Below, one piece after another: positions 17,936 to 21,021 of a DNA stretch of 30,745 nucleotides; positions within the stretch are counted from its first letter, which is position 1, and each line of letters opens with the position of its first letter. The position numbers and the translations under genes are program-made. The DNA is from Minisyncoccota bacterium. Lineage in GTDB: Bacteria; Patescibacteriota; Minisyncoccia; Phycocordibacterales; GWA1-40-21. The DNA lies in NCBI GenBank assembly GCA_041659365.1, contig JBAZYH010000013.1, positions 1-30,745 on the forward strand, written 5' to 3'. Under the pieces are notes generated by a model. The model worked only from the letters and a program-made list of their open reading frames with translations. It was not told where the DNA came from and did no database searches.

Positions 17936-18997
17936 ATGGATAAAAATACAATAATTGAATGGTTGACTGATAAAAACACTTCTTTTCTTATTGGTGCGGG
18001 TTGTAGTAAATGTGCAGGAAAACCATTGATGAGCGAACTCACAACGAAGGTGGTTGAGAAACTGAGCGTAGATGGTAAAAAAATTATCAAGGAGCTAATT
18101 GGAGTAGATGGACAGTCTGATCCAACAGTCGAGGATTTAACCAATCAACTTTTGCAACTCCAGCGTGCTACACAACAGAGAAAGACAAGCGTGATCGATG
18201 GTTGGAATCTCGATAAAATAAATGAAGAAATAATTTTAATACAGAAAAGCGTTGTTGAAATAATCGGCCAGGAATGGACATCGAATCAACATCACAAAGA
18301 TTTTCTTCACAGACTTTCACAGAATAGTAAGACACCCCGTGATCTTTTCTTGCTTAATTATGATACTCTCATCGAAGCCAGTCTCGAGGATTTGAAATTA
18401 TCGTACACTGATGGTTTTAGGGGTGCTGAAAACGCTTTTTTTGATCCTTCCGTTTACTCAGTCGATGATAATAAGAAACATTTTAATATCTACAAACTCC
18501 ACGGCTCAATTAACTGGACACGGCAAATTGATGACACCGTGAGGAGAAAACCTTCGTCTGCTATTTCAGAGACAGATACTAGAAATGTTATTTACCCTGC
18601 GGAGCAGAAATATGTTCAAACTCAGTATGGTGTCTATGAGATATTGTTGAGATTGTTTAGGGATCGACTAAAAAATGATCGACCAAACAATCGTCTTGTC
18701 GTGCTTGGTTATAGCTTTAGTGATGAACATATCAATGTGGCTATCGAGGATGGCATCCTATCGTCTGGTAGTAATCTAACTGTTTATGCTTTTGTAGGAA
18801 AAAGTATAAGTGAAGCCCGTAAGAAACAGCTCAAAGAAATGGCTGATAGATGTGACAATAGATTTAATGTTTTTGTTGCTAAAGATGAATACATCGGAGG
18901 CCTTAATCAGGAAGAATGTTTAAAAGTAATCAAAGAGCTTGATTATTCAAGGTTTGAAAATATCGTAGGGTTATTAACCAGCAAAGATCATGAGTAA
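17936..18997 (+). CDS. SIR2-family (NAD+-hydrolysing, defence-type) protein of a SIR2-HerA system
   Basis: FLIGAGCSKCAG (Rossmann GAGxS), LLNYDTLIE, YKLHGSINW (catalytic His), VVLGYSFSDEHI. ATG at 17936 is preferred over the ORF-track TTG at 17882. Stop overlaps the herA start. Confidence 0.8.
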   Translation: MDKNTIIEWLTDKNTSFLIGAGCSKCAGKPLMSELTTKVVEKLSVDGKKIIKELIGVDGQSDPTVEDLTNQLLQLQRATQQRKTSVIDGWNLDKINEEIILIQKSVVEIIGQEWTSNQHHKDFLHRLSQNSKTPRDLFLLNYDTLIEASLEDLKLSYTDGFRGAENAFFDPSVYSVDDNKKHFNIYKLHGSINWTRQIDDTVRRKPSSAISETDTRNVIYPAEQKYVQTQYGVYEILLRLFRDRLKNDRPNNRLVVLGYSFSDEHINVAIEDGILSSGSNLTVYAFVGKSISEARKKQLKEMADRCDNRFNVFVAKDEYIGGLNQEECLKVIKELDYSRFENIVGLLTSKDHE

Positions 18998-20711
18998 GCA
19001 CATCCTTCATATCGCAAGAGTGGTTGAGGTCAACGGGGCTAAGGCGATTGGTGAACTTGAAACGAATGTCAGTGATCTCTATCGTTCATACAAAAGTAGA
19101 AAATATGCAGTCGGACAAGTAGGATCGCTTGTAAGAATTGATGTCGGGAATACGATCGTCTTCGGCATAGTTACCTCATTAAGAATGAGAGAGGAACTGA
19201 TTGATGGAGCAACAAAAACACAGCATTCTGTAGATCCAAGCTCTGATAGTAAGTGGATAGAAATAGAGCTGTTTGGACAAGGAGAGAAAAACGGTACAGA
19301 AGATGAAGACTTCATTTTTCAGAGAGGTATTTCAACTTATCCGTTGCCGGGACAAGGGATCAGATTAGCGACAGTAGAAGAGTTGAAAGTTATTTATGCA
19401 AAACCAAATACCCCAACTGTTAAAGTTGGAAGTGTTGCTCAGGTGAAAGGTTTACCGGCTTATCTTTTGATGGATGAATTACTTGGTAAACATTTTGCTA
19501 TTCTTGGAACAACCGGATCTGGTAAATCATGCACCGTCGCACTTGTATTTCAATCTATTCTGAAAGAGTGTCCATATGCGCATATAGTTCTACTCGATCC
19601 ACACAATGAATATCCTAGAGCCTTTCCAGATCAATCAGAATCGATTGATCCAACTAAGCTACAGCTTCCACACTGGCTTCTTAATTTTGAAGAGAGCTTA
19701 TCTGTATTTATCGGGATGACAGAACATGAGGCAACAAGACAAAACAACATACTGAAAGATGCGATATTAAATGCCAAAAAGATATTTCCCTCACAAGTAC
19801 TAGATTTGGACAAGATAACCATTGATAGTGCGGTACCATACAAAATCAGTGATGTAGTAAACCACATTACCGAAGCAAAAAATAAACTAACAGAATCAAA
19901 ACAGGATTCTCATTTGAAAATTCTCAACAAGATTGAGACTCTCAAAAGCGATAAGCGTTTTTCATTCTTACTCAGACCTGATGATGAAATAAAGGATAAT
20001 TTACATGAAATAATATCTGACATTCTAAGAATACCGGGCAAAGGAAAACCTATTTCGATAATCGATTTATCAGGAATTCCTTCCGATGTAGTTGATGTTG
20101 TTGTTTCAGTATTGTGTAGATTGATATTTGATTTTGCTTTATGGAATGAGAAACGAATTCAAACCCCTTTATTTTTAGTATGTGAAGAAGCTCATAGGTA
20201 TGTCCCGAAGAAAGATGAAGCAGCTTTCCAACCTACTAAGCAAGCACTCTCTCGAATCGCAAAGGAAGGAAGAAAATATGGAGTTGGTCTTTGCCTGGTT
20301 ACTCAAAGAGCATCAGAACTATCAGAAACAATACTCTCTCAGTGTAATACAATCATTGCTTTGAGAATGACAAACCAACAGGATCAAGACTTCGTGCGTC
20401 GGGCTTTACCTGATAATGTTTCAAGTCTGGTAAATACTTTACCTGCACTACAAAACAGAGAAGCTTTAGTTGTTGGAGAAGGAACTATCGTTCCATTAAG
20501 AGTATTTTTTGATGAGATTGAAGAATCAAAAAGACCCAAAAGCTCAAATGTTGCTTTTGCCGCACCCTGGAAAGTTGAAATTACTGATAATTTATTAGTT
20601 AAAGAAACAATCAAAAACTGGCGAGAGCAGAATCGTGTAATACCTACTCCTGTAACTTCTTCCACAGAAAAGGTAGAGGTTCAGGTTAAATCTAAAAAGA
20701 AGAAGGAATAA
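18990..20711 (+). CDS. herA: HerA-family ATPase/helicase (FtsK-HerA superfamily), partner of SIR2
   Basis: Walker A GTTGSGKS, DPHNEY, Walker B LVCEEAHRY, GRKYGVGLCLVTQRASEL, N-terminal HAS-barrel-like region. ATGA-type overlap with the SIR2 gene. Confidence 0.85.
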   Translation: MSKHILHIARVVEVNGAKAIGELETNVSDLYRSYKSRKYAVGQVGSLVRIDVGNTIVFGIVTSLRMREELIDGATKTQHSVDPSSDSKWIEIELFGQGEKNGTEDEDFIFQRGISTYPLPGQGIRLATVEELKVIYAKPNTPTVKVGSVAQVKGLPAYLLMDELLGKHFAILGTTGSGKSCTVALVFQSILKECPYAHIVLLDPHNEYPRAFPDQSESIDPTKLQLPHWLLNFEESLSVFIGMTEHEATRQNNILKDAILNAKKIFPSQVLDLDKITIDSAVPYKISDVVNHITEAKNKLTESKQDSHLKILNKIETLKSDKRFSFLLRPDDEIKDNLHEIISDILRIPGKGKPISIIDLSGIPSDVVDVVVSVLCRLIFDFALWNEKRIQTPLFLVCEEAHRYVPKKDEAAFQPTKQALSRIAKEGRKYGVGLCLVTQRASELSETILSQCNTIIALRMTNQQDQDFVRRALPDNVSSLVNTLPALQNREALVVGEGTIVPLRVFFDEIEESKRPKSSNVAFAAPWKVEITDNLLVKETIKNWREQNRVIPTPVTSSTEKVEVQVKSKKKKE

Positions 20712-20712
20712 T

Positions 20713-21021
20713 ATGAGCCAACTTTTAATAGATATAATCGGGGGTCTAGCTGTAGTAATCATTGCTGCTTGGTTTGGTCTTGGAGTATCTACAAAAATAA
20801 CCATTCAAGGAGGTCATAAAGTTAAAAGAACCGGAAAATGGATAATTATTATTTCTGTTATAATGTTTTTTGTTGGTATTTCTCTTTGTAAGAAAGGAGA
20901 TTCCACTCTGTGGGGATACGACATGAGTAATCCGTCTACTGTCTGTGGGGTAACAATCATGCTTTACAGTGTACTTTTTTTCTTTGTAGGAAAGACTATT
21001 ACTTGGTTCCAAGGATCTTAA
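20713..21021 (+). CDS. Small 3-TM membrane protein translationally coupled to herA
   Basis: 102 aa. Start is 1 nt after the herA stop with GAAGGAA Shine-Dalgarno inside the herA 3' end. Three hydrophobic helices. Confidence 0.55.
   Translation: MSQLLIDIIGGLAVVIIAAWFGLGVSTKITIQGGHKVKRTGKWIIIISVIMFFVGISLCKKGDSTLWGYDMSNPSTVCGVTIMLYSVLFFFVGKTITWFQGS

What the first reader, a model, noticed from the sequence alone, without database searches (positions are those of the whole stretch)
17936..21021. SIR2-HerA antiphage operon with an extra, translationally coupled 3-TM membrane gene
SIR2 (GAGxS, HGS motifs) and HerA (Walker A/B, HerA-type motifs) with overlapping stop and start match the described two-gene SIR2-HerA NAD+-depletion defence system. 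Here a third ORF (102 aa, three TM helices) begins 1 nt after the herA stop with a Shine-Dalgarno inside herA, so it is almost certainly co-expressed. A membrane component is not part of the canonical system as I know it. It could be an effector, a sensor or an anchoring subunit. The operon is also about 40% G+C, higher than its surroundings.
Basis: partly seen in the sequence, partly recalled or inferred. Interest (0 to 1): 0.6.

Follow-up and report, generated by a model that had tools for sequence, protein, structure and literature searches.

The report
SIR2-HerA defence pair plus unrelated membrane gene
This is an ordinary two-gene SIR2-HerA antiphage system acquired by a Paceibacterota (CPR) genome, and the small membrane gene fused to its end is a real gene but a neighbour brought in by recombination, not a conserved third part of the system.

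Summary
SIR2 (17936-18997) and HerA (18990-20711) overlap by 8 nt. A 102-aa three-helix membrane ORF (20713-21021) starts 1 nt after the herA stop. No promoter-like or convincing terminator-like site lies at the herA/TM junction, and a strong terminator follows at 21108-21127. SIR2 and HerA are canonical: their best solved-structure matches are the two subunits of one SIR2-HerA complex.

The membrane ORF is a real gene (dN/dS 0.05-0.24) from a rare family of about 45-50 clusters; the three named members come from CPR/DPANN MAGs. It is not part of SIR2-HerA.
- The closest SIR2-HerA locus (HerA 83% identical) shares DNA only over 17890-20645 and lacks the gene.
- None of the 81 HerA loci fetched before the scan contains a homologue; 11 of them are SIR2-linked with at least 350 nt downstream.
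- In 10 other genomic contexts the family sits beside unrelated genes, never HerA.
- Four close relatives (and a fifth, variant copy) carry their own conserved promoter-like 5' block. The window keeps only its last 9 nt (AGGAATAAT), which now supply herA's last codon and stop.

So this is a recombination junction between two modules, probably co-transcribed. Interest is low. A modular defence-accessory role for the membrane family is not excluded (about 12%).

The parts
17936..18997 (+). SIR2 NADase gene (353 aa from ATG 17936; an in-frame TTG at 17882 is an alternative start)
   Evidence: Pfam SIR2_2 scores 1.3e-14. PADLOC SIR2 PDLC04093 scores 1.7e-47. The best PDB match is 8w9l_A at 2e-25, with NYD and HGS aligned.
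18990..20711 (+). HerA ATPase gene (573 aa), start overlapping the SIR2 stop by 8 nt
   Evidence: DUF87 scores 6.5e-45. PADLOC HerA PDLC04105 scores 7.6e-137. The best PDB match is 8wiv_A at 7.8e-78, and entries 8wld/8woc/8wod/8wof also hold the SIR2 match. 7994 of the 8000 candidates scored passed E<=1e-30, and the best 120 listed are 58-83% identical.
17890..20645 (+). Extent of the two-gene cassette shared at DNA level with the nearest relative, L009 (74.6% identity)
   Evidence: blastn of L009 against the window. Homology begins 46 nt before the SIR2 ATG and ends about 22 codons before the herA stop.
20704..20712 (+). Module junction: AGGAATAAT, the remnant of the TM gene's native 5' block, which now supplies herA's last codon, its TAA stop and the SD-like AGGA
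   Evidence: Close TM relatives carry CTTTACTTTTTTGACTTCTAGGAATAATGTT(N5)ATG. The 9-mer occurs only once in the window, at this position.
20713..21021 (+). Gene for a 102-aa three-helix membrane protein of a rare family. It is a real gene but not a conserved SIR2-HerA component
   Evidence: There are homologues P0002-P0005 and 48 representative clusters. dN/dS is 0.05-0.24. AlphaFold2 predicts three helices. There are no Pfam, PADLOC or PHROG hits.
21066..21098 (+). Copy of a lineage-specific multi-copy motif (AAGTTCTAAAC..TCCAAC..GGGAGC) at the operon's 3' end. The same motif follows herA directly in L009
   Evidence: Further copies lie at 24955, 26239, 27228, 27988 and 30274.
21108..21137 (+). 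Intrinsic terminator (AGACCC-loop-GGGTCT followed by a T-run) ending the SIR2-HerA-TM transcription unit
   Evidence: It is the first strong terminator-like site on the + strand after SIR2; the only earlier + strand site (20943-20969, 3 G-C pairs) lies inside the TM ORF. The scan found no promoter-like site near the herA/TM junction.

Best explanation
The locus is a canonical two-gene SIR2-HerA abortive-infection system that a Candidatus Paceibacterota (CPR) genome acquired horizontally. It forms the left end of a mosaic island of higher G+C.

By inference from the solved homologues, HerA forms a hexameric ATPase that scaffolds a SIR2 dodecamer. On phage infection the complex is expected to deplete NAD+ and to degrade nucleic acids, stopping phage replication.

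The 102-aa three-helix membrane gene directly after herA is a real gene under purifying selection. It belongs to a small family that travels as cargo in variable or mobile regions. In its closest relatives it has its own promoter-like 5' block. In this window a recombination or deletion event joined it to the 3' end of herA. The event removed most of that 5' block, shortened the non-conserved HerA tail, and created the 1-nt spacing.

The gene is therefore probably transcribed by read-through from the SIR2-HerA promoter and translated from the retained AGGA. It acts independently of SIR2-HerA as a small inner-membrane protein. Its predicted topology is N-terminus out, loop 1 in and C-terminus in, by the positive-inside rule (inference). 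Its biochemical role is unknown.

Shown here: gene identities, lack of conservation of the pairing, the junction anatomy, and purifying selection on the TM gene. Inferred: the SIR2-HerA mechanism, co-transcription, and functional independence.
For: - SIR2 and HerA domains and motifs are confirmed.
- Their best solved-structure matches are the two subunits of the same SIR2-HerA complex entries, 8wld/8woc/8wod/8wof.
- The published system is described as two genes (PMC11472057 and PMC11514289 abstracts).
- The nearest relative, L009, has SIR2-HerA but no TM gene. DNA homology covers 17890-20645 and then resumes at the 3' motif, leaving the TM gene as an indel of about 355 nt.
- tblastn of the TM protein hit none of the 81 HerA loci then held, and no coupled small multi-TM ORF lies downstream of herA. 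Eleven of these loci are SIR2-linked with enough downstream DNA, and two more belong to the same 60-61% HerA clade.
- An E. coli plasmid SIR2-HerA has a different abutting small gene, a KTSC-domain protein at a 2-nt gap. The slot downstream of herA is therefore variable.
- TM-family contexts all differ and none contains HerA or SIR2. The neighbouring proteins share no homology among the contexts compared, and the L102 genes matched none of the earlier neighbours.
- A conserved native 5' block is present in L003, L099, L091 and L008, in variant form in L102, and partly in L002, where the contig starts inside it. Only its last 9 nt survive in the window, at a unique position.
- dN/dS for the TM gene is 0.05-0.24.
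- A terminator is present only after the TM gene.
- The island has 35-48% G+C against 24-30% for the backbone.
Against: - The 1-nt spacing, the loss of the gene's own promoter and the absence of an intervening terminator mean the TM protein is now expressed with SIR2-HerA. A lineage-specific functional link cannot be excluded from sequence alone.
- In several other contexts the TM gene also sits 2-5 nt downstream of, or overlapping, genes that look defence- or mobile-element-related: a Dsr1-C-terminal-like 1010-aa protein next to an SNF2/ResIII helicase, a 326-aa protein, a 67-aa protein and a 97-aa protein. This hints at a recurrent accessory role rather than pure chance adjacency.
- Only 11-14 truly SIR2-linked loci could be surveyed for the downstream slot.
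- No expression data exist.
Confidence: 0.78

Rival explanations
1. The TM protein is a lineage-specific third subunit of this particular SIR2-HerA system, acting as a membrane anchor, sensor or pore-forming effector.
For: - The gap is 1 nt, with an SD-like AAGGA inside herA.
- The scan found no promoter-like site just upstream of the TM start and no convincing terminator before 21108.
- The TM gene has lost its own promoter block, so it depends on the operon for expression.
- The gene is intact and under purifying selection across the family.
Against: - The pairing occurs only in this window. It is absent from the nearest relative (83% HerA identity) and from all other SIR2-HerA loci examined.
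- The TM family lives in 10 other contexts without HerA or SIR2.
- The HerA tail that abuts the gene is non-conserved and shortened, not adapted.
- Solved SIR2-HerA complexes need no third protein, according to the PMC11472057 abstract.
Confidence: 0.08
2. The TM family is a modular membrane accessory, for example a generic effector, anchor or regulator. Many different defence or mobile-element operons in CPR bacteria would recruit it, with SIR2-HerA as one client.
For: - It is always in an operon with variable partners, often at gaps of 1-5 nt: HerA; L090 326 aa; L094-96 1010-aa Dsr1-C-terminal-like protein (PADLOC 4e-18) with an SNF2/ResIII helicase; L007 67 aa; L097 overlap.
- Its neighbourhoods are rich in defence or mobile-element genes: DEDDh exonuclease effector model 1.4e-15, PIN, methylases, AAA_14, Fic, PD-(D/E)XK, ImmA/HTH, and serine and tyrosine recombinases.
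- Conserved cytoplasm-facing patches (KTGKW and GKxxxWFQ) could be interaction surfaces.
Against: - The closest relatives have their own promoter-like block and gaps of 38-51 nt, so they are independent transcription units.
- Two contexts have it as the first gene after a divergent neighbour.
- No partner recurs, and no enrichment statistic could be computed from about 10 contexts.
- Any cargo gene of mobile islands is expected to sit among defence or mobile-element genes.
- There are no matches to PADLOC, PHROGs or Pfam, or in 50,697 phage and 72,556 plasmid records.
Confidence: 0.12
3. The adjacency is an assembly chimera that joins foreign SIR2-HerA DNA of higher G+C to a CPR contig, or the TM ORF is spurious.
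For: - G+C jumps from 24-30% to 35-48% at about 17.9 kb.
- The contig ends are a perfect 127-nt inverted repeat, which is an assembly-graph signature.
Against: - A multi-copy motif occurs both inside the island (21066, 24955, 26239) and in the low-G+C backbone (27228, 27988, 30274). The island is therefore embedded in, and adapted to, the same genome.
- The TM family's three named members are CPR/DPANN MAGs, two of them CPR.
- The TM ORF has homologues with dN/dS far below 1.
- The same 30745-nt contig is recorded by several sources.
Confidence: 0.02

Closest known systems
SIR2-HerA two-gene antiphage system (solved complexes in PDB 8wld/8woc/8wod/8wof; described in PMC11472057 and PMC11514289)
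   Same: - The gene order is SIR2 then HerA, with overlapping stop and start.
- The SIR2_2 domain has the GAGCS, NYD and HGS motifs.
- HerA has DUF87 with Walker A and B.
- Both proteins' best solved-structure hits are the two subunits of one complex.
   Different: - The host is a Paceibacterota (CPR) MAG, and the cassette sits in an island of higher G+C.
- HerA carries a short non-conserved C-terminal tail that ends in sequence derived from the neighbouring gene's 5' region.
- A small membrane gene follows at +1 nt. It is not part of the family definition and is not conserved.
Nearest natural relative: metagenome contig Ga0620611_010837 (locus L009)
   Same: - SIR2 is 79% and HerA 83% identical.
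- DNA is 74.6% identical over window 17890-20645.
- The same 3' motif (GTTCTGAAC..TCCA..GGGAGC) follows the operon.
   Different: It has no TM gene. herA is followed after 45 nt by the motif and then by a promoter-like TTGACA and an unrelated 217-aa gene.
E. coli plasmid NZ_CP010123 SIR2-HerA with an abutting KTSC-domain gene
   Same: A small third gene starts 2 nt after the herA stop. This shows that tight downstream neighbours occur in this system.
   Different: The third gene encodes a soluble 69-aa KTSC-domain protein unrelated to the TM protein. HerA is only 31% identical.
Small membrane effectors or components of other defence systems (CBASS and Pycsar TM effectors, Kiwa KwaA, Zorya ZorAB), named from my own knowledge
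   Same: A small multi-helix membrane protein encoded in a defence operon.
   Different: - There is no nucleotide-sensing or other soluble domain.
- There is no sequence match in PADLOC.
- Foldseek against the PDB gives only non-significant matches (KwaA E 2.5, ZorAB E 3.8).
- The pairing with the upstream system is not conserved.
Class I holins (three TM helices, about 100 aa), from my own knowledge
   Same: The size, the three helices and the predicted N-out/C-in topology.
   Different: - There is no charged C-terminal tail; only about 8 residues follow helix 3.
- There is no adjacent endolysin.
- There is no PHROG match and no tblastn match in 50,697 phage records.

Membership tests
SIR2-HerA antiphage system | Adjacent co-oriented SIR2 and HerA genes in one operon | tested here: met
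   ORFs 17936-18997 and 18990-20711 on the + strand overlap by 8 nt.
SIR2-HerA antiphage system | SIR2-type NADase domain with a Rossmann glycine motif and the catalytic Asn/Asp (NYD) and His (HGS) | tested here: met
   Pfam SIR2_2 scores 1.3e-14 and PADLOC SIR2 scores 1.7e-47. GAGCS, LLNYDTL and KLHGSINW align to 8w9l_A.
SIR2-HerA antiphage system | HerA-clade ATPase (DUF87) with Walker A and Walker B | tested here: met
   DUF87 scores 6.5e-45 and PADLOC HerA scores 7.6e-137 over residues 7-549. GTTGSGKS and CEEAHRY align to 8wiv_A.
SIR2-HerA antiphage system | Both proteins related to the subunits of an experimentally solved SIR2-HerA complex | tested here: met
   The SIR2 hit 8w9l_A and the HerA hit 8wiv_A share entries 8wld, 8woc, 8wod and 8wof.
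SIR2-HerA antiphage system | HerA hexamer-SIR2 dodecamer assembly, phage-triggered NAD+ depletion and protection from phage | not testable with these tools
   This needs biochemistry and phage assays. It is inferred from homology only.
   tblastn of the TM protein found no hit in any of the 81 HerA loci then held, and no coupled multi-TM ORF lies downstream. The gene is absent from the nearest relative, L009.
   Ten other TM-family contexts contain no SIR2 or HerA.
   The sequence is consistent with co-expression: a 1-nt gap, an SD-like AAGGA, no promoter-like site just upstream of the TM start, and a terminator after the TM gene. No transcript data exist.
Class I holin | Three TM helices plus a charged C-terminal tail, a lysis-cassette context and phage family membership | tested here: not met
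   Three helices are present, but the C-terminus is about 8 residues. There are no PHROG, phage or plasmid hits and no endolysin nearby.
Known defence-system membrane effectors (PADLOC models) | Sequence match to a described defence TM component | tested here: not met
   PADLOC gives 0 families at E<=0.01. Foldseek against the PDB gives no match at E<=0.001.

The most novel reading that the evidence does not exclude
The 3-TM protein belongs to a CPR/DPANN-restricted family of modular membrane accessories that different defence and mobile-element operons capture at their 3' ends. The clients seen here are SIR2-HerA, a Dsr1-like/SNF2 operon in Falkowbacteria, and a DEDDh exonuclease. In this locus it would couple NAD+-depleting SIR2-HerA immunity to the membrane, which would be an undescribed three-component variant.
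Probability: 0.12. Interest if true: 0.55.

Novelty: new member of a known kind. Interest (0 to 1): 0.2.

Why it matters
For SIR2-HerA biology it matters little. The locus is a standard two-gene system, and the extra gene does not define a new variant.

It is a useful worked example of a general trap. A 1-nt gap that looks like translational coupling can be the scar of a recombination junction rather than evidence of a shared function.

Two minor points of interest remain:
- A complete SIR2-HerA system is present in a reduced-genome CPR bacterium, on a horizontally acquired island.
- A rare, uncharacterised three-helix membrane protein family recurs in variable, recombinase-flanked and defence-rich regions of CPR genomes. 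It could be worth a dedicated context survey.

Tried and rejected
- **Genome-collection scan with HerA.** It returned a single 38%-identical Ignavibacteria locus. There SIR2-HerA sits in an R-M island and is followed by an MNT/HEPN pair, with no TM gene.
- **Metagenome scan.** About 65 of the 80 loci belong to a 42-48% HerA-like clade that is not SIR2-linked. I excluded these from the SIR2-HerA count.
- **Homology of the genes downstream of the operon.** The window's 182-aa ORF and L009's 217-aa ORF looked similar by eye. BLASTP gives E = 2.1, so this is not supported.
- **Fold search of the TM model against the PDB.** There were no significant matches. I did not try other libraries, because a three-helix bundle at pLDDT 70 is uninformative.
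- **Database searches with the TM protein.** PHROGs, phage tblastn, plasmid tblastn, Pfam at E<=1 and PADLOC gave nothing meaningful.
- **Homology among the TM gene's neighbours in different contexts.** None was found, except the L091/L099 exonuclease (83%) and the L003/L099 74-79-aa ORF.
- **An own promoter for the TM gene inside herA.** None was found. By hand, the best -35 candidate matches only 3 of 6 positions.
- **Search for more copies of the structured RNA at 21141-21398.** None in viral contigs and only L092 among the fetched loci.
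Full report
**1. What is in the sequence**

- SIR2, 17936-18997. An in-frame TTG at 17882 is an alternative start.
- HerA, 18990-20711. Its ATG overlaps the SIR2 stop by 8 nt.
- A 102-aa ORF, 20713-21021, starting 1 nt after the herA TAA. The junction reads aagaAGGAAtaatATG.

The sigma-70-type scan found no promoter-like site just upstream of the TM start. The only + strand terminator-like site before the end of the TM gene is a weak one inside the ORF (20943-20969, 3 G-C pairs). 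A good bidirectional intrinsic terminator (AGACCC-loop-GGGTCT plus T-run) lies at 21108-21127. The three genes are therefore plausibly one transcription unit.

G+C is 37.0%, 37.6% and 35.3% for the three genes, against 24-30% for the left flank. The right flank is higher still, 38-48% up to about 27.2 kb. The operon is the left end of a mosaic island of roughly 9.3 kb inside a backbone of about 28% G+C. That backbone carries xseA/xseB, an ECF sigma factor and a NYN gene. Source records name the contig as a Candidatus Paceibacterota MAG.

**2. SIR2 and HerA are canonical**

SIR2:
- Pfam SIR2_2 scores 1.3e-14, and the best PADLOC SIR2 model scores 1.7e-47.
- Against solved structures the best hit is 8w9l_A (2e-25), with GAGCS, NYD and KLHGSINW aligned.

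HerA:
- DUF87 scores 6.5e-45, and PADLOC HerA scores 7.6e-137 over residues 7-549.
- The best solved hit is 8wiv_A (7.8e-78), with Walker A GTTGSGKS and Walker B CEEAH aligned.

The two hits share entries 8wld/8woc/8wod/8wof, so they are the two subunits of one solved SIR2-HerA complex. [quoted passage not shown] A search for papers holding both 'SIR2-HerA' and 'transmembrane' found none that names a membrane component in its title or abstract opening.

HerA has thousands of relatives: 7994 of the 8000 candidates scored passed E<=1e-30, and the best 120 are 58-83% identical. Named ones include Deltaproteobacteria, Gammaproteobacteria, Nitrospira and Rhodobacterales. This fits horizontal acquisition by the CPR host.

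**3. The third ORF is a real gene from a rare family**

- A word-index search found four homologous clusters at 47-71% identity.
- A full HMM search of 1.84 billion representatives found 48 clusters at E<=1e-3, of which 28 at E<=1e-10. Full-length members are free-standing proteins of about 85-128 aa, and a few shorter entries are fragments.
- A profile search of the 5.8-billion-sequence set found 44 clusters. The three that carry names are Paceibacterota, Candidatus Falkowbacteria and a 'Nanoarchaeia' MAG.
- Pairwise Nei-Gojobori analysis gives saturated synonymous sites (pS 0.68-0.78). dN/dS is 0.05-0.24 for the six pairs where dS could be computed.
- AlphaFold2 with the 35-sequence alignment predicts three helices at 2-20, 40-58 and 74-101 (pLDDT 70, pTM 0.46).
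- Conserved patches are K-T-G-K-W before helix 2 and G-K-x-V-A-W-F-Q at the C-terminus. The basic loop 1 suggests an N-out, loop-1-in, C-in topology (inference).
- There is no match in Pfam (best E 0.023, below threshold), PADLOC or PHROGs, nor in 50,697 phage or 72,556 plasmid records. Foldseek against the PDB gives nothing at E<=0.001.

**4. Is the pairing conserved? View from the HerA side**

The nearest relative is P0007 on locus L009, with HerA 83% and SIR2 79% identical. It has SIR2-HerA followed, after 152 nt, by an unrelated 217-aa gene.

At DNA level, homology to the window runs from 17890 to 20645 at 74.6% identity and then stops. A pairwise alignment picks it up again only at a short motif (CCAATnTA..GTTCTrAAC..TCCA..GGGAGC). 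That motif lies 45 nt after the herA stop in L009 and about 40-48 nt after the TM stop in the window. The TM gene is thus an indel of about 355 nt between otherwise collinear sequence.

A metagenome scan returned 80 HerA loci. Together with L001 and L009, tblastn with the TM protein found no hit in any of these 81 loci that tblastn confirmed as HerA. No locus has a closely coupled small multi-TM ORF after herA.

Only the loci with HerA at least 58% identical, plus L001, have SIR2 upstream. Of these, 11 have at least 350 nt of downstream DNA, and two more loci of the same clade are truncated upstream. The 42-48% clade is a different HerA-like family that is not SIR2-linked; for example, a Sphingomonas plasmid has TauE/SafE and TIGR02186 genes upstream.

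An annotated E. coli plasmid SIR2-HerA has a different small gene, a 69-aa KTSC-domain protein, 2 nt after herA. Tight but non-conserved downstream neighbours therefore do occur in this system.

**5. Is the pairing conserved? View from the TM side**

Ten further contexts were read.

| Locus | Gene upstream of the TM gene | Gap | Other neighbours |
|---|---|---|---|
| L003-L006 | Fic, divergent | 183 nt | a 74-aa ORF follows |
| L007 | 67-aa ORF | 5 nt | in an operon beside ImmA/HTH |
| L002 | not seen (contig starts 24 nt upstream) | - | a HAD hydrolase follows |
| L090 | 326-aa protein | 2 nt | convergent with a large serine recombinase |
| L091 | DEDDh exonuclease (PADLOC effector model 1.4e-15) | 41 nt | DEAD helicase, PIN, methylase |
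| L099-L101 | Peptidase_C1-like 512-aa protein | 38 nt | the same exonuclease (83% identical) two genes further up |
| L094-L096 (Falkowbacteria) | 1010-aa protein matching the C-terminal region of PADLOC Dsr1 (4e-18) | 4 nt | SNF2/ResIII helicase |
| L097 | 97-aa ORF | overlapping | an AAA_18 gene follows |
| L092 | PD-(D/E)XK-like gene, divergent | 48 nt | - |
| L102-L104 | 298-aa protein | 51 nt | a 65-aa ORF follows, then two tyrosine recombinases, convergent |

None of these contexts contains SIR2 or HerA. The partners share no detectable homology among the contexts compared, and the L102 genes matched none of the earlier neighbours. The common theme is variable, recombinase-flanked, defence-rich DNA.

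**6. Junction anatomy**

Close TM relatives share a conserved block directly upstream of the ATG. In L003 and L099 it reads CTTTACTTTTTTGACTTCTAGGAATAATGTT(N5)ATG, with 4 and 8 mismatches in L008 and L091. L102 has a variant, TTGACT-17 nt-TAATGT. L002 keeps only the last part, because its contig starts inside the block.

The block reads as a -35 box (TTTACT or TTGACT), a 17-nt spacer and a -10 box (TAATGT), placed 6-8 nt before the ATG. That would be an own promoter giving a nearly leaderless mRNA. This promoter reading is inference.

The window has no such block. Only AGGAATAAT remains, directly before the ATG. There it encodes herA's last codon (GAA), its TAA stop, and the SD-like AGGA. This 9-mer occurs once in the whole window on both strands, exactly at this position, against about 1.05 copies expected anywhere by chance. 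I estimate the chance of it falling within 20 nt upstream of this ATG at about 3e-4.

On the other side, HerA homology to L009 fades in the non-conserved tail. The window's tail ends KSKKKKE*, where L009 continues KSKKKVQTNEIGTS*.

The simplest reading is a recombination or deletion junction that fused two independent modules. It removed the TM gene's promoter and trimmed the HerA tail. The 'translational coupling' is a by-product of that junction.

**7. Verdict**

Best explanation (0.78): a canonical two-gene SIR2-HerA system on an acquired island, with a neighbouring small membrane gene that is co-transcribed but functionally independent.

Rivals:
- A lineage-specific third subunit (0.08).
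- A modular membrane accessory used by several defence or mobile-element operons (0.12). The recurrent 1-5-nt coupling to variable defence-like genes keeps this alive. The own-promoter contexts and the absence of any recurring partner argue against it.
- An assembly chimera or spurious ORF (0.02). Copies of the same lineage-specific motif inside and outside the island argue against a chimera, and dN/dS argues against a spurious ORF.

Novelty: a new member of a known kind. Interest: low.

**8. Seen in passing**

- **Structured RNA candidate.** The 305-nt stretch 21096-21400 folds with an MFE of -114 kcal/mol and z = -10.1; it comprises the operon terminator and a ~258-nt element at 21141-21398.
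  - That element has a tRNA-like closing stem.
  - Its last 16 nt are identical to the 3' end of the window's tRNA-Asn.
  - A homologue of about 137 nt lies in L092, with four compensatory pairs in its first hairpin.
  - The window copy carries a 122-nt internal insertion or duplication bounded by a 17-nt direct repeat.
  - ARAGORN and Rfam do not recognise it.
- **Multi-copy motif.** A motif followed in most copies by a terminator hairpin recurs six times in the window and also occurs in L009 and L092.
- **MVP homologue.** A full-length major-vault-protein homologue lies at 22320-24869. Bacterial and phage MVP homologues have been described (bioRxiv 10.1101/872010 and 10.1101/2023.11.10.566534).
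- **LOOT RNA.** An Rfam LOOT RNA lies at 17320-17444 on the minus strand.
- **AT-rich repeat region.** A repeat region at 17504-17878 has nested iteron-like doublets.
- **Contig ends.** The two ends form a perfect 127-nt inverted repeat.

Noticed in passing
window 21141-21398 (+); L092 2006-2148: A highly structured RNA candidate lies just after the operon terminator. The 305-nt stretch 21096-21400, which includes that terminator, folds at -114 kcal/mol with z = -10.1. The ends of the element form a tRNA-like stem (GGCUCCGGAG/CUCCGGAGC). Its last 16 nt are identical to the 3' end of the window's tRNA-Asn (5089-5104). A ~137-nt homologue lies downstream of another TM-family gene in L092, with four compensatory pairs in hairpin 1. 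The window copy has a 122-nt internal insertion or duplication bounded by the 17-nt direct repeat TACGTGTAGGGATCGAA (21170 and 21292). ARAGORN and Rfam do not recognise it. The part of the island with higher G+C (21.4-27.2 kb) begins at its 3' end, so it might be an integration target.
   Followed up: partly
window 21066-21098, 24955-25034, 26239-26265, 27228-27307, 27988-28067, 30274-30318; L009 3757 and 5374; L092 ~1940: A multi-copy intergenic motif reads CAAGTTCTnAAC..T(T/C)CAAC..G(A/G)GC. It is usually followed by a hairpin plus T-run (terminator) and once by a TTGACA promoter. Copies occur inside the island and in the backbone, and one lies between two minus-strand genes. It could be a 3'-end element, a repeated small RNA or a protein-binding site specific to this CPR lineage.
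   Followed up: partly
window 22320-24869 (+): An 849-aa full-length homologue of the eukaryotic major vault protein. Pfam MVP_shoulder scores 2.2e-31, and residues 471-782 are collinear with residues 457-766 of PDB MVP chains at E 1e-13. It has 48% G+C and sits inside the island of a CPR genome. Bacterial and phage MVP homologues have been reported in preprints, but its neighbours here (182-, 203- and 266-aa ORFs) have no family matches.
   Followed up: partly
window 17320-17444 (-): An Rfam LOOT RNA (RF03000) scores 82.3 bits against a gathering score of 46.4. It lies directly upstream of the minus-strand 205-aa membrane-protein gene at 16654-17271.
   Followed up: no
window 17504-17878: An AT-rich (about 24% G+C) intergenic region holds two 134-nt direct repeats (17564-17697 and 17745-17878, 87% identical). 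They contain nested 10-11-nt doublets such as AAATGTCAGT x2, TGTTAGCATT x2 and TAGCAAATAC x2. The region ends exactly where homology to the L009 SIR2-HerA cassette begins (17890) and lies at the cumulative GC-skew minimum of the window. It could be iteron-like, an origin, or a regulatory array.
   Followed up: no
window 1-127 and 30619-30745: The two contig ends are perfect reverse complements over exactly 127 nt. This is most likely an assembly-graph overlap (k = 127) at two inverted copies of a repeat, not a biological terminal inverted repeat.
   Followed up: no
L106 (E. coli plasmid NZ_CP010123.1) 1728-5024: An annotated E. coli SIR2-HerA locus has a different small gene, a 69-aa KTSC-domain protein, starting 2 nt after the herA stop. 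The slot immediately downstream of herA seems to accept varied small genes.
   Followed up: no
L094-L096 1-5330 (Candidatus Falkowbacteria contigs): A candidate uncharacterised defence operon. It holds an SNF2/ResIII/YagJ helicase, a 120-aa ORF and a 1010-aa protein whose residues 446-845 match the C-terminal region of PADLOC Dsr1 (4e-18) without a SIR2 domain. A TM-family gene follows 4 nt downstream.
   Followed up: no
window 16181-16456 (-): A DUF6804 small membrane protein (Pfam 1.5e-29) lies in the low-G+C backbone just left of the island.
   Followed up: no
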